Shown: positions 45 through 61,874 of the stretch, piece after piece
Position numbering within the stretch: the first letter of the stretch is position 1
Layout: every line of letters begins with the position of its first letter
Origin: an uncultured Gammaproteobacteria bacterium
Lineage (GTDB): Bacteria > Patescibacteriota > Microgenomatia > Levybacterales > GWA1-39-11
Reading direction: 5' to 3'
Length of the DNA stretch: 64,000 nt
NCBI GenBank assembly: GCA_964406795.1
Contig: CAYOTA010000005.1
Span: 14,235 to 78,234, forward strand
Made by a program: the position numbers and the translations under genes
Notes under the pieces: model-generated
What the model was told of the DNA's origin: nothing
What the model saw: the letters and a program-made list of their open reading frames with translations, nothing else
Databases searched by the model: none

Positions 45-130
45 GGAGAGGTGACCGAGTGGCCTATGGTAACGGTTTACTAAACCGTCGTCCGCAAGGA
101 CCGAGAGTTCGAATCTCTCCCTCTCCGCCA
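45..130 (+). tRNA. Class II (long variable arm) tRNA, Ser identity (G73 discriminator, 3-bp D stem); hand-folded anticodon loop UUACUAA gives the unusual anticodon ACU (GCU expected)
   Basis: Acceptor GGAGAGG pairs with CCTCTCC, then G, then encoded CCA. D stem ACC/GGT. Anticodon stem ACGGT/ACCGT. Variable stem GTCC/GGAC. T arm GAGAG-TTCGAAT-CTCTC. Confidence 0.75.
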
Positions 131-4741: not shown

Positions 4742-4816
4742 TGGTGGAGCCGACAGGATTCGAACCTGTGGCCAGGTGTGTATAAGACACCTGCTCTACC
4801 GCTGAGCTACGGCTCC
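4742..4816 (-). tRNA. tRNA-Ile with UAU anticodon (reads AUA)
   Basis: Reverse complement GGAGCCG-TA-GCTC-AGCGGTAGAGC-A-GGTGT-CTTATAC-ACACC-TGGCC-ACAGG-TTCGAAT-CCTGT-CGGCTCC-A-CCA gives a full cloverleaf with anticodon loop CUUAUAC. Confidence 0.8.
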
Positions 4817-10228: not shown

Positions 10229-10232
10229 TATG

Positions 10233-10658
10233 TGGAGATGGCGAGATTGATCTCGCGTCCAAATGTTGTTTTCTAAAACATCTACAAGCGTAGTTAATAA
10301 TTAATTGTCGTTTTGTTTTGATCTTATTAACAAGAAAAACAATTCCAAGATTTTAATTTTCTAACCTAAAGCCAATCATTCTTTAAGCCCTATCTCAACT
10401 GGTTTATGTTCATGTCTATCCGTTGAGAAAAGAAACAACATGAACGGTGTGAACCGTTATGCAAAAGCTTATGCAGCTAGAGCATATCCCTGAGGGGCGA
10501 ACCCCTTAGAGATCCCGTCAGCTAGACGAGCAACGAGCCCACGTGCCTTAACGACTCCGTCGTTTTTAGCATTTGTGTTTTGACTCCTGTTTTACGACTG
10601 TAAATCAAAGTCGGCTTGCAGTTTTAAAAGAGCAAAATCTGTCGATGCGTGCATCCCC
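10233..10658 (-). ncRNA. ssrA: tmRNA (ssrA), about 426 nt with an extended 5' region; tag reading frame ends ...PQGYALAA-UAA
   Basis: The minus-strand 5' end GGGGAUGCACGCAUCGACAGAUUUUGC resembles E. coli GGGGCUGAUUCUGGAUUCGACGGGAUUUGCG. The 3' end GGACGCGAGAUCAAUCUCGCCAUCUCCA resembles E. coli GGACGCGGGUUCAACUCCCGCCAGCUCCA. The in-frame tag GCU CUA GCU GCA UAA lies at plus 10469-10483. The gene sits directly downstream of smpB on the same strand. Confidence 0.65.
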
Positions 10659-54519: not shown

Positions 54520-54614
54520 TTATACATTAAATAGCCTCGTGTCACTAATTACTATTGATTTATTATCAAACCCACGATATATTAATAATATAGATAATTT
54601 GGTGTGTTCTATAT

Positions 54615-55319
54615 ATGGCAAAGTATGATTTGAGGATTAAAGCTAGGGAATTGCGGGGAAATGGAATAAGTGTAAAAGAAATCTCGACATATTTGGGCGT
54701 GTCCAAGAGTTCAGCAAGTTTGTGGGTTAGGGATATAATCCTAACAGTCGAGCAATTGGAAAACTTAAGAAAGGCAGAAATAAAAGGAAAAGAGCGGGGA
54801 CGTTTAAAAAGTGCTCTACTACAGAAGAAAAGGCGCACAAATCAGATAGAAGAAGCAAGAGATGAGGGAATTGGGGTAATGTCTGGGCTTTCAGAGAGAG
54901 AATTCCTTATTGCAGGTAGCGCTCTTTATTGGGGTGAGGGTAGTAAAAAGAGTCAACAGGTGGAATTTTGTAATTCTGACCCTAAAATGATAAAATTCTT
55001 GATTGGATGGTTAAAATTTAATTTTCAGGTTACAACGGAGGAGTTAAGGTGTCGCATAGGAATTAACGAACTGCATAGAAAAAGGGAAAGCGAAGTTAAG
55101 CAATTTTGGTCAAAAACGACTGGTATACCAATAGTCCAATTTAATCAAACAAGTTTTAAGCAGGCAAAAAGTAAAAAGGTATATGGAAATTTTAACGAAC
55201 ACTATGGCACTCTTTCTATAAAAGTTTTAAGGCCAACAAAGAGCTTTTATAAAATCTTAGGTCTTATAAATGGTCTAAGTGAGGCAGGAATGAAACTGGT
55301 GTTTCAGGACGTTTCATAA
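54615..55319 (+). CDS. HTH plus LAGLIDADG-like homing-endonuclease-family protein (paralog 1)
   Basis: N-terminal HTH GISVKEISTYLGVSKSSASLW. LAGLIDADG-like block EFLIAGSALYWGEGSK. Paralogous to 59674..60390. Confidence 0.55.
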   Translation: MAKYDLRIKARELRGNGISVKEISTYLGVSKSSASLWVRDIILTVEQLENLRKAEIKGKERGRLKSALLQKKRRTNQIEEARDEGIGVMSGLSEREFLIAGSALYWGEGSKKSQQVEFCNSDPKMIKFLIGWLKFNFQVTTEELRCRIGINELHRKRESEVKQFWSKTTGIPIVQFNQTSFKQAKSKKVYGNFNEHYGTLSIKVLRPTKSFYKILGLINGLSEAGMKLVFQDVS

Positions 55320-55328
55320 GCGTTCTCT

Positions 55329-55354
55329 GGTGGGTTCAATCCCCACTCCTGCTA
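55329..55354 (+). other. Orphan tRNA 3'-end fragment (T arm plus acceptor 3' strand)
   Basis: GGTGGGTTCAATCCCCACTCCTGCT lies immediately after the endonuclease-like gene. No convincing D or anticodon arms upstream. Confidence 0.4.
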
Positions 55355-55399
55355 CATTTTTCCCAGACTTACTCCTACTGTTACAGTTTTCAATTAATT

Positions 55400-55420
55400 C
55401 GGAGGAGGCGGGGTTTGAAC
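55400..55420 (-). other. tRNA-Ser 3'-end fragment duplicate (att-like)
   Basis: Minus-strand GTTCAAACCCCGCCTCCTCCG matches the 3' end of tRNA-Ser(GGA), about 600 bp away and in the same orientation. Confidence 0.5.
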
Positions 55421-55455
55421 AAAGACGTTTTGAAGCGAAGAAATGCGCTTCTTGA

Positions 55456-55830
55456 TTAATCGCAGTTCGGGATCTTTAGGATATCGCACTTATAAAAGTC
55501 ATACCCTATTCCGTATCCAGCAGAAAGTGCAAAGGCAACAAATACTACTGCAACAATCGCATTCACTACATACAAGCGTCTGTCTTTCAATATCGGGAAC
55601 AGCGCTACAAGGCCACCCACACCCACCAAAGCAATGAGAGCAAGTACAAGCCGTTGCTCGAAACCAGTGGTTTCACCTAGTGGGCGAATGAAAGAGAGGA
55701 AAAAATATGCCTGCAATCTGACAAGGGCGTTAGCAATGAAAAATGGAAGGGAGAATGCTATGCCGATAAACAGATAGCGTTTATTAATCCACATAGTAAA
55801 AGCATACATCTCGTTCAGTATTTGGCACAA
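55456..55830 (-). CDS. Small polytopic membrane protein (hypothetical)
   Basis: 124-aa hydrophobic ORF between the tRNA-Ser fragment and the intact tRNA-Ser. Confidence 0.35.
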   Translation of the reverse strand: MCQILNEMYAFTMWINKRYLFIGIAFSLPFFIANALVRLQAYFFLSFIRPLGETTGFEQRLVLALIALVGVGGLVALFPILKDRRLYVVNAIVAVVFVAFALSAGYGIGYDFYKCDILKIPNCD

Positions 55831-56011
55831 GTCCTCGCCGTTGTGATAGAAAGCTTAGAACCGGGTACAAATACCTTGAGGGTCATTTAGGCGATTTTCT
55901 ATATTACAGGATATGTTTGGGATACTTGCGATTCCTAGTTGTTTTTTTAGCAAGCCACATAGGGCTAATCGAGCATAGGAGATGGGTCTTGGAGCAACCC
56001 AAGGCTTTCTG

Positions 56012-56095
56012 CGGAGGAGGCGGGATTTGAACCCGCGTAAGTTTTCACTTGCACGCTTTCCAAGCGTGTGCCATAGGCCACTAGGCGACTCCTCC
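56012..56095 (-). tRNA. tRNA-Ser (GGA), class II
   Basis: Minus strand GGAGGAG-TC-GCC-...-CACGC-TTGGAAA-GCGTG-long variable arm-GCGGG-TTCAAAT-CCCGC-CTCCTCC-G. Anticodon GGA. Confidence 0.8.
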
Positions 56096-56162
56096 AGTTT
56101 TGTTTAATGTGGCCTGCCTTTTTACTTTGCAAAAAGATAAGGCCACTAGGCGACTCCTCCAG
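56075..56162. repeat. 23-nt perfect direct repeat AGGCCACTAGGCGACTCCTCCAG (56075-56097 and 56140-56162) duplicating the 5' end of tRNA-Ser(GGA)
   Basis: Read directly in the sequence. The second copy abuts the stop of the Nudix gene. Confidence 0.7.
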
Positions 56163-56163
56163 A

Positions 56164-56604
56164 TTAAGCTTGTGCAAGCTTTTCGATAATGGGTCGAGCT
56201 TCTGTGAACACATCTTTATCTGATCTATAAGTAAGACGACCCATAACTTGATCCGGTGGTAGCCATTCTACGGCTTCCATTTCGTGGTCGTGTTGAGTTA
56301 TATCTCCTCCGGTAAATTTCATGATGTAGTAATATACGGTCTTTTTCCTTTTTTCGTTATCCATAACATACCAGTAAGTAATTGGGGTTAATTCGTGAAT
56401 AATTTCTCCCTCAGCTCCTGTTTCTTCTTTTACTTCACGCACGGCTGTATCCTTTTTGTCTTCCCCTTTTAGATGTTCTTTGTCTCCAATAAGTCCTTTA
56501 GGAAAAACCCATCCGTGGTGATACGAATGTTGTGACACTAAAACAAATATCGAATTGTCTTCGACTTTGAAAACTACTCCACCAGCTGAAAATTCAAGTC
56601 TCAT
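56164..56604 (-). CDS. Nudix hydrolase
   Basis: Start trimmed to MRLEFSAGGVV because the longer ORF overlaps tRNA genes. Nudix box GEDKKDTAVREVKEETGAEG. Confidence 0.7.
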   Translation of the reverse strand: MRLEFSAGGVVFKVEDNSIFVLVSQHSYHHGWVFPKGLIGDKEHLKGEDKKDTAVREVKEETGAEGEIIHELTPITYWYVMDNEKRKKTVYYYIMKFTGGDITQHDHEMEAVEWLPPDQVMGRLTYRSDKDVFTEARPIIEKLAQA

Positions 56605-56664
56605 AAATATTTTTGTAAGCTGTACTTCGTCCCTCAGTACCAGGTTTTCGGAATACCTCAAAAC

Positions 56665-56739
56665 TGGCGCTCTCGGTGGGAATCGAACCCGCATCAGAGG
56701 ATCCGGAATCCCCCGTTCTATCCGTTGAACTACGAGAGC
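56665..56739 (-). tRNA. tRNA-Arg (CCG)
   Basis: Minus strand GCTCTCG...GGGGA-TTCCGGA-TCCTC...GCGGG-TTCGATT-CCCAC-CGAGAGC-G-CCA. Confidence 0.8.
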
Positions 56740-56748
56740 ATAGTTCTG

Positions 56749-56833
56749 CGGAGGGTACAGGATTCGAACCTGTGAAGGACTTGCGCCCTCGAGTTTTCGA
56801 AACTCGTGCAATTGGCCGCTATGCGAACCCTCC
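56749..56833 (-). tRNA. tRNA-Ser (CGA), class II
   Basis: Minus strand GGAGGGT...CGAGT-TTCGAAA-ACTCG-long variable arm-ACAGG-TTCGAAT-CCTGT-ACCCTCC-G. Confidence 0.75.
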
Positions 56834-56902
56834 CAGGTTTCAATCCATGCGCCGCATTTGAGTTTATCGAAAACGCGGTGCCAGGTTCAGGCAAGCTGAA
56901 AT

Positions 56903-56978
56903 TGGCGCACCCGAGTGGGGTCGAACCACCAACCGCAAGATCCGCAATCTTGTACTCTATCCATTGAGCTACGGGTGC
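56903..56978 (-). tRNA. tRNA-Arg (GCG)
   Basis: Minus strand GCACCCG-TA-GCTC-AATGGAT-AGAGT-A-CAAGA-TTGCGGA-TCTTG-CGGTT-GGTGG-TTCGACC-CCACT-CGGGTGC-G-CCA. Confidence 0.8.
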
Positions 56979-57118
56979 TCGTCTAAATAACTCCTGCTCT
57001 TCAGATCTTGCAGATCTTTAACGCAGTCGTATTTCTCCTCTTAAAATTGTTTCACAATTTTGGAATACGAATTTAATAGACACCTTGTATTTTAGTTGAT
57101 TTACGGGCAATTTACAAA

Positions 57119-57676
57119 CTATGAGGCGCGTTCCAGAGGAAAATTTTTAGAAAGCCATTCTCCTGACTTTTCCATGAATGTTTGCTGGACTACTTCTCGG
57201 TATGGTAAGAAGTTTATGAGTACTTGCCGCGCGTGTTCTTTAGAAATATTTCCCAGTGTAATTCGTAACTCTCCGGGAATAAGTGCCTCAGTCCTTACAA
57301 TTAGTGTGTCTACCCCATCTATCTTTTTAAAATAAAAGTCATACAGTTCTCCCCAAATGTAAAAATGGTCCTCTACCTTTATACCTTCAGTGGACACTCG
57401 GTAGTGAAAATCTTTAGGAGGCACTGTTGAGAGTACAATTGATAAAAATGTGACTGCTGCGACGGCTAGCATGAGTTGGTATTGTGCAAACAAGAAAACT
57501 ATAAGTTCTATTAAGAAAAATATAAGCATTACTGACAAATAAAACTCACGCTTTTTCTTTCTAAATGGGCGTCCAGGTGCTGTCCAAGACAAGAGAGTCC
57601 GTACATCATTGTATTCTTCTTGAGGCTCGTTTTCGGAAGGGGGAACAGGTTGCTCCATATGTTTACTATGCACCAA
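57119..57676 (-). CDS. Membrane protein with bacterial PH-like domain (hypothetical)
   Basis: Two TM helices followed by a soluble domain. Similar architecture to 6629..7330. Confidence 0.4.
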   Translation of the reverse strand: MVHSKHMEQPVPPSENEPQEEYNDVRTLLSWTAPGRPFRKKKREFYLSVMLIFFLIELIVFLFAQYQLMLAVAAVTFLSIVLSTVPPKDFHYRVSTEGIKVEDHFYIWGELYDFYFKKIDGVDTLIVRTEALIPGELRITLGNISKEHARQVLINFLPYREVVQQTFMEKSGEWLSKNFPLERAS

Positions 57677-57706
57677 ATAGAGCTTTAAATCAAGTGGATA
57701 TGTGTT

Positions 57707-58573
57707 TTACAATTCAATAAGTGTTGTGCTATCAGAGTTTTTTGCGTCTTTAATATATTGAAGGTAGCGTTCAGTGGATGAAAGACGCTTGTGTCCTAAC
57801 ACTTTTGACAAGAATACGAGTGACACACCATTTCTTAAATGGTGAGCTACAAACGTGTGGCGTAAATCATTAATTTTTGCATTTTCAATTCCTGCTTTTC
57901 TAAAGTATCGCTCTACTGCGTCTCTGATGTTTCTAACTAAAAATGGCTTTCCGGTTTTTGTTACAAATACGTGTGTTCCTTCAGTTTTAGTTCTTCCGGC
58001 AAGATATCTTTTAAGACCTTCTTTAGCGCGTCTATTTAGCTGAACTTCACGAGCTGCATGCCCTTCGTAAGGCGCAATGTGAAGCGCATTGTCAGAGACA
58101 TCATCCATTTTAAGATTTGCGAGTTCACCAATTCTTATACCTGTTTGGAGTAATACTTCAATAATTGCGTAAATTCTTGGGTCAACTGATGCCGCATCAC
58201 GTAATGCTCTATATTCAAGAGGAGTTAGCACGCGAGGTGCAGACAATTCATATTTAGGGTGAGAAACAAGTAAAGAAGGATCGTCAGTTATATATTCATT
58301 AATCTTCAAGAATCTATAAAAAGTTCTTGTTGAGTTAAGTTTTCGTGAAAGAGATTTTGGTGTATATCCTTTGTCAGACAAACTTCCTAAAAACGCTTGG
58401 ATATCATTATTATCTATTTCATGGATGTGATGTTTCTCAAGAGTTTCCAGAAAGGATAAGAGTTGGTCAATATCTTTGCCGTATGCTAATATGGTAGCAG
58501 ATGCCCTCTTCTTTGATTTCAAGAAGTCTTGGAATTTGTCATATGCATCTCGCATTTTAGTAGGAGTATTCAT
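57707..58573 (-). CDS. Tyrosine site-specific recombinase (XerC/XerD/integrase family)
   Basis: N-terminal SAM-like domain. C-terminal catalytic residues in LRHTFVAHHL and GHKRLSSTERYLQY. Confidence 0.8.
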   Translation of the reverse strand: MNTPTKMRDAYDKFQDFLKSKKRASATILAYGKDIDQLLSFLETLEKHHIHEIDNNDIQAFLGSLSDKGYTPKSLSRKLNSTRTFYRFLKINEYITDDPSLLVSHPKYELSAPRVLTPLEYRALRDAASVDPRIYAIIEVLLQTGIRIGELANLKMDDVSDNALHIAPYEGHAAREVQLNRRAKEGLKRYLAGRTKTEGTHVFVTKTGKPFLVRNIRDAVERYFRKAGIENAKINDLRHTFVAHHLRNGVSLVFLSKVLGHKRLSSTERYLQYIKDAKNSDSTTLIEL

Positions 58574-58656
58574 GTATGTCTAAATTCAAAGAAAGCTGAG
58601 CTGTTTTAAGCTCAGTTTTCTAAAGATAAAGCCTATAATATCAAGAAGCGCGTGTA

Positions 58657-59016
58657 ATGTCAAGAAGAGCTATGTGGTCACAAAGTAAAAAGATTATTTT
58701 AATAGTAGTATGCATTGCACTTCTTGTGTTGGTAAAAAACATACTTTCCTCCATTCTCTCAACCCACGAACGCGCACAAATTCTTAAAGAATTACGCACG
58801 GAATTAGCATATAAAAAGGAACAAGAAGTATTGCTTACCCAAAAATTGTCGGTTGCCAAAACTGATGAATTTGTAGAAAATGAGGCTCGGTCAAAGCTGG
58901 GATTGGTGAAAGAAGGCGAGAAAATCGTAGTAGATGAGAAAATTAAGCTTGTTGTTCCTCAAATTGTGGCTCCGGAGCCTCCAAACTGGCAAAAGTGGGC
59001 TAAACTCTTCTATTAG
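58657..59016 (+). CDS. Septum formation initiator family protein (FtsB/DivIC-like)
   Basis: N-terminal TM, coiled coil, and conserved ENEARSKLGLVKEGEKIV. Confidence 0.6.
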   Translation: MSRRAMWSQSKKIILIVVCIALLVLVKNILSSILSTHERAQILKELRTELAYKKEQEVLLTQKLSVAKTDEFVENEARSKLGLVKEGEKIVVDEKIKLVVPQIVAPEPPNWQKWAKLFY

Positions 59017-59280
59017 GCCCATTCTCATACTTGATTTCTATATATGGAAGATTTATATTCCAAATATACTCTCATAATTTATGAATATTATTGAAGGAAT
59101 AACCGGTCGTAATATCATCTCAGAAATCAAAGCTCCACCAATTACAGTTACTCGCCCTTCTCCTGACGCCAGGACATCTCGTATGCAGCGGTATGCACAG
59201 CCTCAAAATAATCCTCAAGATGGAGGACTACAATTAAAGGTGAATAGTTCGAATCCGAGAACAAGAAGAGGAAAATAGTA

Positions 59281-59673
59281 GATAGTGTGCTTGCAGTGAG
59301 CGAAGCGAATCTGTTGCGGGGCAAGGAATCGCACCTTGTCTAGAAGATTATGCTTGTTGTTAATCTCCCATTACTGAAAGTATCGGACTATATCATATTC
59401 CAATTAGCTTGGAACTCCAGCGTATAGTCTCTACGGGGTTCAGTTAGATTAAACATCTAAGAGAACTTCCCTCGGTATTGCCCTTTCTGCTTAGTTTTGA
59501 ATTCGGGTTTCACCGATACAGCTAGATTCATTCATCAATGTTACCATTGCGACGGCCCAATTGAGCCTTCTGTGCAGCTTTACACTACCCCGCGCGTCCT
59601 GATCATAATAGCATGTACCTATGTGTAAGTCAATTCGCACAAAATATACAGTTAATATTTTCCTATTGACGAG
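59281..59673 (-). ncRNA. Candidate group-I-intron-like structured RNA core (R and S elements) or remnant
   Basis: Minus strand has GTAGAGACTATACG (R-like, consensus CAGAGACTACACG) at plus 59421-59434. About 25 nt downstream it has TGATATAGTCCG (S-like, consensus AAGATATAGTCC) at plus 59384-59395. Confidence 0.35.
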
Positions 59674-60390
59674 GTGCGGTTATTATTCAATAATAAAAAT
59701 GTGTCATATTCAAGCGTTAAAAAAGATGAGGTAAGGAAGCTTAGGAGAGCGGGTATGAGCTTGAATCACATAGAAAAAACCTCCAATGTGCCTAAATCCA
59801 CTATAAGAGAATGGATAAAGGATATTTCCTTAAACCCAGAACAAACTCAGGTGTTGCTTGAAGGCGCACTCATTGCTCTTCAGAATGGTAGAAAAGTTGC
59901 GCAAGAAAATAAACGCAAAAAAAGAAGTAAAAAAGAAGAAGAATTACACATTCAAGGAGTAGCCGAGATAGGTGCGCTAAATAAACGTGAATTGTTTATC
60001 GCAGGGATCGCTTTATATTGGGCAGAAGGATTTAAGAATAGACATGAAAAAAGGTTGGGTTTCTGCAACTCTGATCCTAAAATGATAAAATTTTATCTTT
60101 ATTGGTTACGTAGTGTATTAGGCGTTGACGCTCTATATATCACTGCTCGTTTAACCATAAATTCTGCACATAAAGATCGTGAAGAAAAAATTCTTGAATA
60201 TTGGCGAAATGTAACTGAATTGCCCGATTCAAGTTTCACAAAGACTTTTTATCAAACCGTTATTTCAGTCAAGCAATTTGAAAATAGAGATTTGTATAAT
60301 GGCGTGCTCCGCCTTCATGTAAAAGAAAGTTTGGACACCTTACTTAAAATGAGAGGATGGATCGAGGGATTAGGAAGTATTCAAAGATGA
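59674..60390 (+). CDS. HTH plus LAGLIDADG-like homing-endonuclease-family protein (paralog 2)
   Basis: HTH MSLNHIEKTSNVPKSTIREW. LAGLIDADG-like ELFIAGIALYWAEGFK. FCNSDPKMIKF is shared with paralog 1. The true start may be a GTG a few codons in. Confidence 0.55.
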   Translation: MRLLFNNKNVSYSSVKKDEVRKLRRAGMSLNHIEKTSNVPKSTIREWIKDISLNPEQTQVLLEGALIALQNGRKVAQENKRKKRSKKEEELHIQGVAEIGALNKRELFIAGIALYWAEGFKNRHEKRLGFCNSDPKMIKFYLYWLRSVLGVDALYITARLTINSAHKDREEKILEYWRNVTELPDSSFTKTFYQTVISVKQFENRDLYNGVLRLHVKESLDTLLKMRGWIEGLGSIQR

Positions 60391-61580: not shown

Positions 61581-61874
61581 AAATTGACATGTAAGAAAAA
61601 CAGGAGTATAGTACGTATTGAGGAGAGGCTTACGAAAGAATTTACGAGCGTGTAGATCCCGCTAAGCGGGAAAACGAGGAAGAAGGGTCCCGATTTAATC
61701 GGGACAATCGGACCTCCGATTAAATCGGAGAGTATTTGCGGAAACCTTCAGGTTGTGAATGTCAACCTTAATAGTTTTTTCAAACCTACTAGTAATAGTA
61801 GACACAAAGAAAAACTTATGCATTTTAAGCCCCATTATTCTCCTGAAGTAATTTTTTATATAACAACATAATCT
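61581..61874 (+). promoter_or_regulatory. Structured glmS 5' leader (candidate glmS ribozyme/riboswitch)
   Basis: Three consecutive hairpins CCCGCtaaGCGGG, CCCGAtttaaTCGGG and CTCCGAttaaaTCGGAG, plus an ACGAGGAAGAAGGG segment, upstream of glmS. Confidence 0.3.

What the first reader, a model, noticed from the sequence alone, without database searches (positions are those of the whole stretch)
54615..60390. tRNA-dense recombination hotspot bracketed by paralogous HTH-LAGLIDADG genes, with tRNA-Ser end duplications and a tyrosine recombinase
Between two paralogous endonuclease-like genes (54615..55319 and 59674..60390) lie four tRNAs and several tRNA fragments. One fragment is an orphan 3' end at 55329-55354. 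Another is a 21-nt copy of the tRNA-Ser(GGA) 3' end at 55400-55420, in the same orientation as the intact gene 600 bp away. That is the attL/attR geometry of an element integrated at the tRNA 3' end, with a single small membrane-protein ORF left inside. The third is a perfect 23-nt direct repeat of the tRNA-Ser 5' end at 56075-56097 and 56140-56162. A Xer/integrase-type tyrosine recombinase sits at 57707..58573. Together these point to repeated integration and excision at this tRNA cluster, leaving decayed remnants.
Basis: partly seen in the sequence, partly recalled or inferred. Interest (0 to 1): 0.6.

Follow-up and report, generated by a model that had tools for sequence, protein, structure and literature searches.

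The report
Selfish gene modules around methionine tRNAs
The two "endonuclease-like" genes each belong to a widespread, undescribed mobile module built around methionine tRNA genes in ultra-small (CPR) bacteria; one sits beside an initiator tRNA split by a self-splicing intron, while the serine-tRNA fragments are a separate integration scar and the recombinase is an ordinary housekeeping Xer.

Summary
The "orphan tRNA 3' end" is the last third of a complete, atypical tRNA-Met(CAU)-like gene (55283-55355) that overlaps the last 12 codons of gene 1. An initiator tRNA-fMet gene split by a 211-nt group I intron (59594-59314, minus strand) lies 80 nt from gene 2 and was missed.

Both proteins have an HTH domain plus an unrecognised alpha/beta domain. 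No LAGLIDADG signal appeared in Pfam, PDB sequence, Foldseek or hhalign searches.

In 74 of 80 related genomes the gene sits about 100 nt from an intron-split tRNA-fMet. In 41 of 80 it runs into an elongator tRNA-Met. In a gene-blind metagenome sample, 9 of 23 intron-bearing tRNA-fMet loci carry the gene, against 1 of 44 intronless loci. A relative (L102) has the same synteny with neither intron nor gene. The protein's divergence is decoupled from the host's.

The best reading is a free-standing homing-endonuclease-like gene working with an ORF-less intron (collaborative homing). The nuclease activity is inferred, not shown.

The tRNA-Ser 3' repeat flanks an inserted membrane-protein gene and looks like a decayed attR. 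The tyrosine recombinase is a syntenic Xer.

The parts
54615..55319 (+). Gene 1 ('HEG1'), 234 aa: N-terminal HTH, long helix, unrecognised alpha/beta domain. Its last 12 codons and stop codon lie inside the tRNA-Met' gene.
   Evidence: ORF. Weak HTH_23 match. 33% identical to gene 2. Own subfamily of more than 335 clusters; 37 of the 120 listed are exactly 234 aa, with tails such as AGSGLVSRGVS or AGMKLVFQDVS.
55283..55355 (+). tRNA-Met'(CAU): cloverleaf with an atypical D-arm (4-5 bp stem, UGGU loop). The UAA in the anticodon loop CAUAA is the stop codon of gene 1.
   Evidence: Rfam tRNA-clan hit at 31 bits. ARAGORN at -ps90. Five variants from five loci are 97.4% paired, with compensatory changes in all four helices.
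54614..55355 (+). 742-bp cassette of gene 1 plus tRNA-Met'. It occupies the place of the elongator tRNA-Met of the relative L081, in inverted orientation.
   Evidence: In L087 (protein 79% identical) homology covers exactly 54614-55355 and the flanking genes differ. L081 has tRNA-Met on the minus strand at this site.
55400..55420 (-). Displaced 3' end of tRNA-Ser(GGA), 20 of 21 bases; probable attR of a decayed integrated element.
   Evidence: L213 homology ends after GTTCAAAYCCCG inside it. The 44-nt spacer to the next tRNA matches the 45 nt in L081.
55456..55794 (-). Small membrane protein (112 aa from the conserved ATG; the ORF as listed runs to 55830). This is the cargo of the inserted segment 55421-56010.
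   Evidence: 60 homologues at 65-98% identity; four loci examined show four different contexts. Absent from this site in L081.
56011..56095 (-). Intact tRNA-Ser(GGA).
   Evidence: ARAGORN. Rfam 55.7 bits.
56140..56162 (-). Perfect 23-nt copy of the tRNA-Ser(GGA) 5' end plus 2 upstream bases, 1 nt after the NUDIX stop. Origin unresolved. It forms a terminator-like hairpin.
   Evidence: Terminator-like site at 56154-56142.
56164..56604 (-). NUDIX hydrolase, a syntenic backbone gene.
   Evidence: Pfam 6.9e-19. Syntenic in L081 and L123.
56665..56978 (-). tRNA-Arg(CCG), tRNA-Ser(CGA) and tRNA-Arg(GCG) cluster, part of the syntenic backbone.
   Evidence: The same three tRNAs occur in L081.
57707..58573 (-). 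Xer-type tyrosine recombinase, housekeeping.
   Evidence: Pfam. XerD and XerC are the top NCBIfam matches, at 158-160 bits and below the equivalog cutoffs. Syntenic with DivIC and tRNA-fMet in 56 of 80 genome loci and in many metagenome loci regardless of intron state.
59564..59594 (-). 5' exon of initiator tRNA-fMet (positions 1-33, ending ...GGCU).
   Evidence: ARAGORN with introns. 96.9% identical to the contiguous intronless gene of L102.
59353..59563 (-). ORF-less group I intron, 211 nt, inserted between U33 and C34 of the anticodon loop. P1 has a U.G pair at the splice site and the intron ends in G.
   Evidence: Rfam RF00028: 53.2 bits against a gathering score of 50, E 1e-10. Orthologous introns score 60-90 bits.
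59314..59352 (-). 3' exon of tRNA-fMet (CAUAA... to the discriminator A; no CCA encoded).
   Evidence: The spliced sequence is accepted by ARAGORN at default settings as tRNA-Met(CAU) with a C1xA72 mismatch. 92.7% identical to L102.
59674..60390 (+). Gene 2 ('HEG2'), 238 aa (229 aa from the GTG at 59701). It is divergent from tRNA-fMet and starts 80 nt from the tRNA 5' end.
   Evidence: ORF. 352 homologues, all unnamed Patescibacteria proteins. AF2 model with pLDDT 89.6. An intron-split tRNA-fMet lies next to the gene in 74 of 80 genomes.

Best explanation
The window holds two copies of a selfish module that is widespread in Microgenomates (CPR bacteria) and is built around the methionine tRNA genes.

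Ancestral state. The ancestral arrangement, still seen in relatives, is an intronless initiator tRNA-fMet next to a divergent elongator tRNA-Met.

The module. It adds a roughly 200-nt ORF-less group I intron in the anticodon loop of tRNA-fMet. It also adds a free-standing gene for an HTH protein with an unrecognised alpha/beta domain, inserted in the spacer. Its ORF often ends inside the 5' end of tRNA-Met.

Copies in this window. Gene 2 (59674-60390) with the intron-split tRNA-fMet (59594-59314) is the resident copy. Gene 1 with the atypical tRNA-Met' (54614-55355) is a second, distantly related cassette. It has replaced the elongator tRNA-Met next to murI.

Mechanism. I infer, but have not shown, that the protein is a dimeric site-specific DNA endonuclease. 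It would cut naive tRNA(CAU) alleles, most likely intronless tRNA-fMet at or near the palindromic anticodon-stem DNA. Repair from the occupied allele would then copy the intron and gene together. The intron, and for cassette 1 perhaps the altered D-arm, would destroy the target and protect the carrier. This is collaborative (trans) homing.

Other features. The tRNA-Ser(GGA) 3' repeat is a separate event. It is the attR-like scar of an element that integrated in the T-loop of tRNA-Ser and has decayed to one membrane-protein gene. The tyrosine recombinase is the chromosomal Xer.
For: Shown:
- The group I intron is called by Rfam, and ARAGORN accepts the spliced initiator-like tRNA.
- An interrupted tRNA-fMet lies 58-159 nt from the gene in 72 of 80 genome loci by pattern search, plus 2 more by Rfam.
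- tRNA-Met lies 0-250 nt downstream in 41 of 80 loci, and the ORF often overlaps it by 10 nt.
- In a sample of 120 metagenome tRNA-fMet loci chosen by a 5'-exon pattern, the gene is adjacent in 9 of 23 intron-bearing loci and 1 of 44 intronless loci (Fisher p = 1.5e-4).
- All three allele states occur in relatives sharing the Xer/DivIC/L25 synteny (about 74-92% identical over the aligned Xer stretch). The window and L081 have intron plus gene. L123 has the intron only. L102 has neither, with 92 nt between tRNA-fMet and L25 and exons 93-97% identical to the window's.
- L166 has tRNA-Met and intronless tRNA-fMet 65 nt apart with no gene.
- Protein and host divergence are decoupled: Spearman 0.19 over 1891 pairs. 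L024 and L084 have Xer 89% identical but the gene only 37%. L056 and L031 have Xer 50% but the gene 80%.
- Truncated or frameshifted copies exist (L057, L073, L129).
- The cassette boundaries are exact in L087.
- Fused forms with two HTH-plus-domain units in one chain exist, which suggests a dimeric working unit.
- The family has invariant acidic and polar residues: E118, D134, R159, N163.

Inferred: nuclease activity, the target site, and immunity conferred by the intron.
Against: - No catalytic domain was identified. No Pfam, NCBIfam, PHROGs or PDB sequence match exists beyond the HTH.
- Foldseek gave only weak hits, to YfiB, IspF and L30e-like folds, with TM at most 0.42. A non-nuclease role therefore cannot be excluded.
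- Fourteen of 23 intron-bearing loci lack an adjacent copy (12 hold no family gene at all, 2 hold one about 3.6 kb away). One intronless locus (L205) has the gene.
- About half of the genome loci lack the downstream tRNA-Met.
- No family member was found in IMG/VR viral contigs, so a vehicle for transfer is not evident.
- The intronless and intron-bearing samples may differ in taxonomy, which would inflate the association.
- Cassette 1 is inverted relative to murI compared with L084 and L120, which simple homing does not explain.
Confidence: 0.55

Rival explanations
1. The protein is a splicing cofactor (maturase-like) or another RNA-binding partner of the tRNA-fMet intron or of tRNA(CAU) precursors, not a DNA endonuclease. 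It is kept next to the intron because the essential initiator tRNA needs it.
For: The gene is tightly linked to the intron. Weak Foldseek hits include L30e, Snu13 and Pop3-type RNA-binding folds. The ORF is probably co-transcribed with tRNA-Met.
Against: Twelve of 23 intron-bearing loci with enough flank hold no family gene in the DNA held (2 more have one about 3.6 kb away), including L123, a relative with the same synteny. The N-terminal domain is a transposase/resolvase-type DNA-binding HTH. Protein divergence is decoupled from the host's. The structural hits are far below significance.
Confidence: 0.15
2. The protein is a transcription factor that controls the divergent tRNA-fMet and tRNA-Met promoters. 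It is a domesticated, vertically inherited regulator.
For: It has an HTH domain. It sits in the spacer that holds promoter-like sites for both tRNAs. One source names a homologue an XRE-family regulator. The module is widespread across Microgenomates classes.
Against: The gene is almost never present at intronless tRNA-fMet loci (1 of 44) although those have the same promoters. Relatives sharing the synteny lack it (L102, L123, L166). It is decoupled from the host marker. Degenerate copies exist.
Confidence: 0.1
3. One reading: a recombination hotspot bracketed by LAGLIDADG homing-endonuclease genes, where a local Xer/integrase-type tyrosine recombinase drove repeated integration and excision at the tRNA cluster.
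For: The tRNA-Ser end repeats are real. The segment between tRNA-Ser(GGA) and the next tRNA varies among L081, L123 and the window. A recombinase gene is present.
Against: LAGLIDADG membership failed every test. The recombinase is syntenic with DivIC and tRNA-fMet in dozens of genomes irrespective of insertions. The junction in L213 points instead to a serine-recombinase-type element. One 'fragment' is a whole tRNA-like gene.
Confidence: 0.1

Closest known systems
[quoted passage not shown] Reviewed in PMC3984707; see also PMC6083498 and PMC2790892.
   Same: [quoted passage not shown] Occupancy is polymorphic among relatives, with three states: neither, intron only, or both.
   Different: The host is a cellular CPR bacterium, not a phage. 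The target gene is an initiator tRNA, not a protein-coding gene. The protein family matches none of the known endonuclease families. Cleavage at the intron insertion site is untested.
[quoted passage not shown]
   Same: A group I intron sits in the anticodon loop of a bacterial initiator tRNA gene, is sporadically distributed, and is associated with a mobility gene.
   Different: Here the gene lies outside the intron, on the opposite strand in most loci. There was no sequence or Foldseek similarity to any PDB chain. An N-terminal HTH is present.
Bacterial tRNA group I introns (cyanobacterial tRNA-Leu(UAA) and tRNA-fMet; Azoarcus tRNA-Ile(CAU)).
   Same: A small (about 200 nt) ORF-less intron in the anticodon loop, with a P1 U.G pair and a terminal G. 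Rfam RF00028 matches it.
   Different: The lineage is Microgenomates. Insertion is between positions 33 and 34. CPR tRNA introns have been mentioned only in passing, as a nuisance for tRNA detection (PMC8172020).
LAGLIDADG homing endonucleases of CPR rRNA insertions (PMC11270868).
   Same: Same host group; a mobility gene associated with self-splicing insertions in structural RNA genes. The motif LYWAEG superficially resembles the end of a LAGLIDADG helix.
   Different: No Pfam LAGLIDADG hit in 34 members at E up to 10. hhalign probability against I-CreI is 0.3%. No LAGLIDADG structure appears among the top Foldseek hits. The predicted topology is a-b-a-b-a-b-b-a, not abbabba.
Integrative elements at tRNA genes (attL/attR with a duplicated tRNA end).
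   Same: A 21-nt direct repeat of the tRNA-Ser(GGA) 3' end flanks a 590-bp segment that is absent from a syntenic relative.
   Different: No integrase remains inside. Only about 12 nt (GTTCAAAYCCCG) is shared with the putative attP-like junction in L213. An extra 5'-end repeat has no standard explanation.
XerC/XerD chromosome-dimer resolvases.
   Same: Domain architecture and best family matches; conserved chromosomal synteny.
   Different: Scores are below the NCBIfam equivalog cutoffs (160 against 330 bits). No dif site was sought.

Membership tests
LAGLIDADG homing endonuclease | Match to LAGLIDADG sequence profiles (Pfam LAGLIDADG_1/2/3) or to solved LAGLIDADG proteins | tested here: not met
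   No LAGLIDADG family at E up to 10 in any of 34 members. The PDB profile search hits only HTH domains.
LAGLIDADG homing endonuclease | alpha-beta-beta-alpha-beta-beta-alpha fold | tested here: not met
LAGLIDADG homing endonuclease | Works as a dimer, or as a fused two-domain monomer | tested here: inconclusive
   Fused proteins with two HTH-plus-domain units exist (7 among the 150 best representatives). This resembles LAGLIDADG evolution but is not specific to it.
Group I intron (Rfam RF00028) | Covariance-model score above the gathering threshold | tested here: met
   53.2 bits against 50 in the window. Orthologous introns in nine related loci score 60.6-89.7 bits.
Group I intron (Rfam RF00028) | 5' exon ends in a U paired to G in P1; intron ends in G; ligated exons restore the host RNA | tested here: met
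   ...GGCU|CAAUUGGGCC and ...AACAAG|CAUAA. The spliced product is a default-score ARAGORN tRNA and matches the contiguous gene of L102.
Group I intron (Rfam RF00028) | Self-splicing activity | not testable with these tools
   Needs in vitro transcription and splicing, or RNA-seq across the exon junction.
Bacterial initiator tRNA-fMet | Mismatch at position 1:72 and a CAU anticodon | tested here: met
   C1xA72 in the window; C or U at position 1 with A72 in 11 orthologues. The acceptor CGCGGGG...CCCCGCAA matches E. coli tRNA-fMet (own knowledge).
Bacterial initiator tRNA-fMet | Three consecutive G:C pairs at the bottom of the anticodon stem | tested here: not met
   The stem is GAAGG/UCUUC, and this holds across the lineage. 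The initiator assignment therefore rests on the 1:72 mismatch and on the presence of a separate canonical elongator tRNA-Met in the same loci.
Collaborative (trans) homing system | ORF-less self-splicing intron with a free-standing mobility gene next to the interrupted gene, co-distributed | tested here: met
Collaborative (trans) homing system | [quoted passage not shown] | not testable with these tools
   Requires purified protein and cleavage mapping.
Xer tyrosine recombinase | SAM-like N domain plus catalytic domain; best match to XerC/XerD models | tested here: met
   Scores are below the equivalog cutoffs.
Xer tyrosine recombinase | Conserved chromosomal location independent of mobile DNA | tested here: met
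   Next to DivIC and tRNA-fMet in 56 of 80 genome loci and in 44 of the 80 metagenome loci searched, of every intron state.
Integrative element at a tRNA 3' end | Direct repeat of the tRNA end flanking DNA that is absent from relatives | tested here: met
Integrative element at a tRNA 3' end | Integrase gene within the element | tested here: not met
   Only one 112-aa membrane-protein gene lies between the repeats. A candidate serine-recombinase fragment is seen only in L213 (E 0.03).

The most novel reading that the evidence does not exclude
The conserved alpha/beta domain (about 1,800 representative clusters at 50% identity) is the catalytic core of a previously unrecognised family of homing endonucleases. 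It would act as a dimer on the palindromic DNA of tRNA(CAU) genes. Its two lineages would have split the job. One would travel with a protective group I intron in the initiator tRNA. The other would travel fused to a re-engineered, cleavage-immune elongator tRNA-Met' whose 5' half also encodes the protein's C-terminus.
Probability: 0.3. Interest if true: 0.85.

Novelty: new variant of a known kind. Interest (0 to 1): 0.66.

Why it matters
- It would extend collaborative homing, so far documented in phages, to cellular genomes, and to the most essential tRNA of all.
- It would add a candidate new endonuclease family, with long and probably palindromic tRNA-gene targets.
- It helps explain why initiator and some elongator Met tRNAs go undetected in CPR genome annotations. 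That failure affects completeness estimates and claims about reduced translation machinery.
- It offers a natural series of allele states (empty, intron only, intron plus gene, gene only) in which the homing cycle can be tested.
- The ORF-tRNA overlap, where a stop codon lies in the anticodon loop, is an unusual case of dual coding.

Tried and rejected
- **LAGLIDADG identity.** Rejected after Pfam on both proteins and on 34 members at E up to 10, NCBIfam, PHROGs, PDB phmmer and profile searches, Foldseek of the full-length and C-terminal-domain AF2 models against PDB and BFVD, and hhalign against I-CreI.
- **Phage origin.** No family member in IMG/VR.
- **Xer as the integrase of the scar.** Rejected on synteny.
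- **Remnants of the old elongator tRNA-Met beside cassette 1.** Alignment to L081 found nothing convincing, because non-coding DNA is too diverged.
- **tRNA-Met' downstream of the 39 genome loci without a called tRNA-Met.** ARAGORN at a very low threshold gave only noise apart from L056.
- **Tandem duplication as the origin of the 23-nt 5' repeat.** Rejected, because the sequences that follow the two copies differ.
- **L123's 338-aa ORF beside the intron-split tRNA-fMet.** It has no Pfam match, so it gives no sign of a different endonuclease there.
- **Literature.** Four of the ten allowed full-text searches found no description of this module. One paper notes in passing that some CPR tRNAs carry group I introns (PMC8172020).

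Full report
**1. What is in the sequence**

ARAGORN finds four tRNA genes on the minus strand between the two ORFs: Ser-GGA, Arg-CCG, Ser-CGA and Arg-GCG. The two ORFs, 54615-55319 and 59674-60390, are paralogues at 33% identity and E 4e-37.

The copy of the tRNA-Ser(GGA) 3' end at 55400-55420 matches 20 of 21 bases. The 23-nt repeat at 56075-56097 and 56140-56162 is perfect. Dinucleotide-preserving shuffles expect 0.00 matches for either. The ORF at 57707-58573 is a tyrosine recombinase.

Two things were misread or missed.

First, Rfam calls a group I intron at 59364-59573 on the minus strand, at 53.2 bits against a gathering score of 50.
- Reading the flanks and running ARAGORN with introns allowed shows a tRNA(CAU) gene. 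Its 5' exon is 59594-59564, a 211-nt intron follows U33, and its 3' exon is 59352-59314.
- The 5' exon ends in a U that pairs with G in P1, and the intron ends in G.
- The ligated exons are accepted by ARAGORN at default stringency. They have the C1xA72 mismatch and the CGCGGGG...CCCCGCAA acceptor typical of bacterial initiator tRNA. They lack the three G:C pairs of the anticodon stem.

Second, the "orphan 3' end" at 55329-55354 is the end of a whole 73-nt cloverleaf at 55283-55355 on the plus strand, with CAU in the anticodon loop (Rfam tRNA-clan hit at 31 bits; ARAGORN at -ps90). It overlaps the last 12 codons of gene 1. The stop codon of gene 1 is the UAA of the anticodon loop CAUAA.

**2. 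The proteins are not recognisably LAGLIDADG**

- Pfam, NCBIfam, PHROGs and PDB sequence searches see only a weak N-terminal HTH of the HTH_23, resolvase or Sleeping Beauty transposase type.
- Scanning 34 family members at E up to 10 gives no LAGLIDADG hit.
- AlphaFold models are confident: pLDDT 89.6 for the full length and 87.7 for the C-terminal domain. They show an HTH, a 45-residue helix and an a-b-a-b-a-b-b-a domain.
- Foldseek against PDB and BFVD gives nothing at E <= 0.001 and no LAGLIDADG entry among the 50 best hits. The best are YfiB, IspF and L30e-like folds with TM at most 0.42.
- hhalign against I-CreI gives a probability of 0.3%.

The domain is nevertheless a large family: 1,796 representatives at 50% identity with E <= 0.001. 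It has invariant residues E118, F130-C-N-S-D-P135, R159 and N163. Fused forms with two HTH-plus-domain units in one chain exist, which suggests that the working unit is a dimer.

**3. Comparative anatomy**

Eighty genome loci encoding relatives were fetched, all Microgenomates: Levy-, Gottesman-, Woese-, Davies-, Roizman-, Beckwith- and Shapirobacteria.
- In 72 loci a pattern search finds an initiator-type tRNA-fMet interrupted by 178-656 nt, ending 58-159 nt from the gene (median about 100 nt). It is divergent in 66 and on the same strand in 6. Rfam adds 2 more loci.
- The nine Rfam group I intron hits in related loci score 60-90 bits.
- In 41 of 80 loci a canonical elongator tRNA-Met follows the gene within 250 nt (median 28 nt). 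Often the stop codon lies 10 nt inside the tRNA.

The module is therefore: tRNA-fMet with intron (leftward), the gene (rightward), tRNA-Met (rightward).

**4. Is the gene tied to the tRNA or to the intron?**

I sampled 120 metagenome loci with a pattern confined to the tRNA-fMet 5' exon, which is blind to both the gene and the intron. A family profile then searched the six-frame ORFs. Among loci with at least 900 nt of upstream room:
- 9 of 23 intron-bearing loci have the gene adjacent, and 2 more have it about 3.6 kb away.
- 1 of 44 intronless loci has it adjacent.
- Fisher p = 1.5e-4.

Empty sites exist in relatives that share the synteny.
- L102 (Xer 74% identical) reads mem185-Xer-DivIC-tRNA-fMet-92 nt-L25. 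Its tRNA is contiguous and 93-97% identical to the window's two exons.
- L123 (Xer 76%) has the intron but no family gene.
- L166 has tRNA-Met and intronless tRNA-fMet 65 nt apart, divergent, with nothing between them.
- L081 (Xer 92%) has intron plus gene, like the window.

The Xer identities for L102 and L123 are tblastn local values; that for L081 is a global alignment of the best aligned stretch.

Neither-, intron-only- and both-states thus coexist among these relatives, and degenerate gene copies occur (L057, L073, L129). This is the distribution expected for a homing cycle.

Pairwise protein identity is almost uncorrelated with identity of the syntenic Xer: Spearman 0.19 over 1,891 pairs.
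- L024 and L084 have Xer 89% identical but the gene only 37%.
- L056 and L031 have Xer 50% but the gene 80%.
- The same-strand loci L031, L049, L056, L059 and L077 supply most of the top outlier pairs, spread over hosts with Xer only 50-60% identical.

**5. The two copies in this window**

Gene 2 is the orthologue of the Levybacteria-type gene. It is 73% identical to the L081 protein and 50-55% identical to many others. It keeps the intron-split tRNA-fMet but, as in L081 to L083, it is followed directly by L25 with no tRNA-Met.

Gene 1 belongs to another subfamily with more than 335 clusters.
- Thirty-seven of its 120 listed members are exactly 234 aa, with conserved tails encoded by the tRNA 5' half.
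- L039 and L053 also carry both paralogues. In each, the gene-2 type lies by the intron-split tRNA-fMet and the gene-1 type abuts a tRNA-Met.
- In L084 a gene-1-type copy sits between an intron-split tRNA-fMet (Rfam 89.7 bits) and tRNA-Met'-murI-murD.
- In L087 (protein 79% identical) homology to the window covers exactly 54614-55355, from the start codon to the tRNA 3' end. The neighbouring genes are unrelated. Gene 1 plus tRNA-Met' therefore behaves as a 742-bp cassette.
- In L081 the corresponding site, 8 nt from the murI start, holds a canonical tRNA-Met on the other strand. The window's cassette has replaced it in inverted orientation. How that happened is not resolved.

tRNA-Met' is not a decaying pseudogene. 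Five variants from five loci are 97.4% paired in a cloverleaf, with compensatory changes in all four helices. None of 500 shuffles reaches the observed covariation score, and the slid controls are far lower. Its D-arm is a 4-5 bp stem with a UGGU loop.

**6. The tRNA-Ser fragments and the recombinase**

Relative to L081 (tRNA-Ser(GGA), 45 nt, tRNA-Met), the window has 590 bp inserted after tRNA-Ser(GGA). The insert carries a 112-aa membrane protein. It is followed by the 21-nt 3'-end copy and then a 44-nt spacer.

The membrane-protein gene has 60 homologues at 65-98% identity. The four loci examined place it in four different neighbourhoods, and DNA homology is confined to the ORF.

In L213 (95.5% nucleotide identity over 55409-55897) homology ends inside the repeat, after GTTCAAAYCCCG. 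Beyond that point lies an ORF whose C-terminus weakly matches the zinc ribbon of large serine recombinases (E 0.03, below the cutoff). The intact tRNA carries the T variant seen in L213, and the displaced fragment carries C.

This fits an attR scar of an element that integrated in the T-loop and then lost nearly everything. The identity of the recombinase is weakly supported.

The 23-nt 5' copy, 1 nt after the NUDIX stop, is real but unexplained. It is not a tandem duplication. It forms a terminator-like hairpin.

The tyrosine recombinase is Xer-like. XerD and XerC are its top matches, below the equivalog cutoffs. It keeps its place next to DivIC and tRNA-fMet in 56 of 80 genome loci and in many metagenome loci of every allele state. 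It is part of the backbone, not of a mobile element.

**7. Mechanism and confidence**

Shown: the anatomy, the linkage to the intron, the empty sites, the decoupling from the host, and the cassette boundaries.

Inferred: that the protein is a site-specific DNA endonuclease; that its target is the naive tRNA(CAU) gene, whose anticodon-stem DNA is palindromic and would suit a dimer; and that the intron or the altered D-arm gives immunity.

The closest documented mechanisms are collaborative homing in phages and the intron-encoded, tRNA-fMet-specific I-Ssp6803I (PMC3984707).

Exceptions remain open: L205 has the gene with an intronless tRNA-fMet that carries a C-to-A change in the anticodon stem, and half of the loci lack tRNA-Met downstream.

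**8. Novelty**

Group I introns in bacterial tRNA-fMet genes and collaborative homing are both known. The presence of group I introns in CPR tRNAs has been mentioned in passing (PMC8172020). CPR rRNA insertions with LAGLIDADG enzymes are described (PMC11270868), but that paper does not mention tRNA.

I found no description of this gene family, of its fixed position between the two methionine tRNA genes, or of the ORF/tRNA-Met' overlap. The library searched is incomplete, so prior description elsewhere cannot be excluded.

Noticed in passing
window 55283-55319: A protein ORF and a tRNA-like gene overlap by 37 nt. The last 12 codons of gene 1 are the 5' half of tRNA-Met', and the stop codon is the UAA in the anticodon loop. 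Thirty-seven of 120 subfamily members have the same 234-aa length, with tails dictated by the tRNA.
   Followed up: yes
window 56142-56154 (minus strand): The orphan 5' copy of tRNA-Ser (its D-arm hairpin plus a T-rich tail) scores as a terminator-like site 1 nt after the NUDIX stop codon. It may have been kept because it terminates that gene.
   Followed up: partly
window 55456-55794; L208, L209, L211, L213: A 112-aa four-helix membrane protein is 74-78% identical at the DNA level to copies in unrelated neighbourhoods. Housekeeping murD and murI are only 70% identical to the closest syntenic relative. This looks like a small gene that moves between genomes.
   Followed up: partly
L205 855-1762: The one intronless tRNA-fMet with an adjacent family gene carries a C-to-A change that breaks a pair in the anticodon stem. 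It could be a resistance mutation, a dying tRNA or a sequencing error.
   Followed up: partly
proteins P0319, P0332, P0337, P0348, P0367, P0430, P0442: Proteins of 400-576 aa contain two copies of the HTH-plus-domain unit in one chain. This is the same single-to-double evolution known from LAGLIDADG enzymes, although the fold is not recognisably LAGLIDADG.
   Followed up: partly
window 4742-4816; many of L001-L080: A tRNA-Ile with anticodon UAU, rare in bacteria, lies within a few kb of the module in 39 of the 80 genome loci and is also in this window. It suggests that AUA is read without lysidine, so all CAU tRNAs here would be Met or fMet.
   Followed up: no
window 45-130: ARAGORN calls a tRNA-Ser with anticodon ACT (A at position 34), which is unusual for bacteria.
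   Followed up: no
window 61636-61827 and 10230-10658: A glmS ribozyme lies upstream of glmS, and there is a tmRNA gene (Rfam gathering-level hits).
   Followed up: no
L081 3966-4050: The spacer between tRNA-Ser(GGA) and NUDIX in the relative is filled by about 12 tandem copies of CTAACGA. The same spacer in the window holds the 23-nt tRNA 5' copy. This spacer is hypervariable.
   Followed up: no
L123 4768-5781: In a relative with the intron but no family gene, a 338-aa ORF with an HExxH motif and no Pfam match fills the space between tRNA-fMet and L25. The tRNA is inverted relative to the window.
   Followed up: partly
window 59605-59633 (minus) and 59666-59694 (plus): Two good sigma-70-like promoter matches (10 of 12) face outward in the 80-nt spacer. 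One is placed to start at the tRNA-fMet 5' end. The other is placed to start at about the GTG at 59701 of gene 2, which could mean a leaderless mRNA.
   Followed up: no
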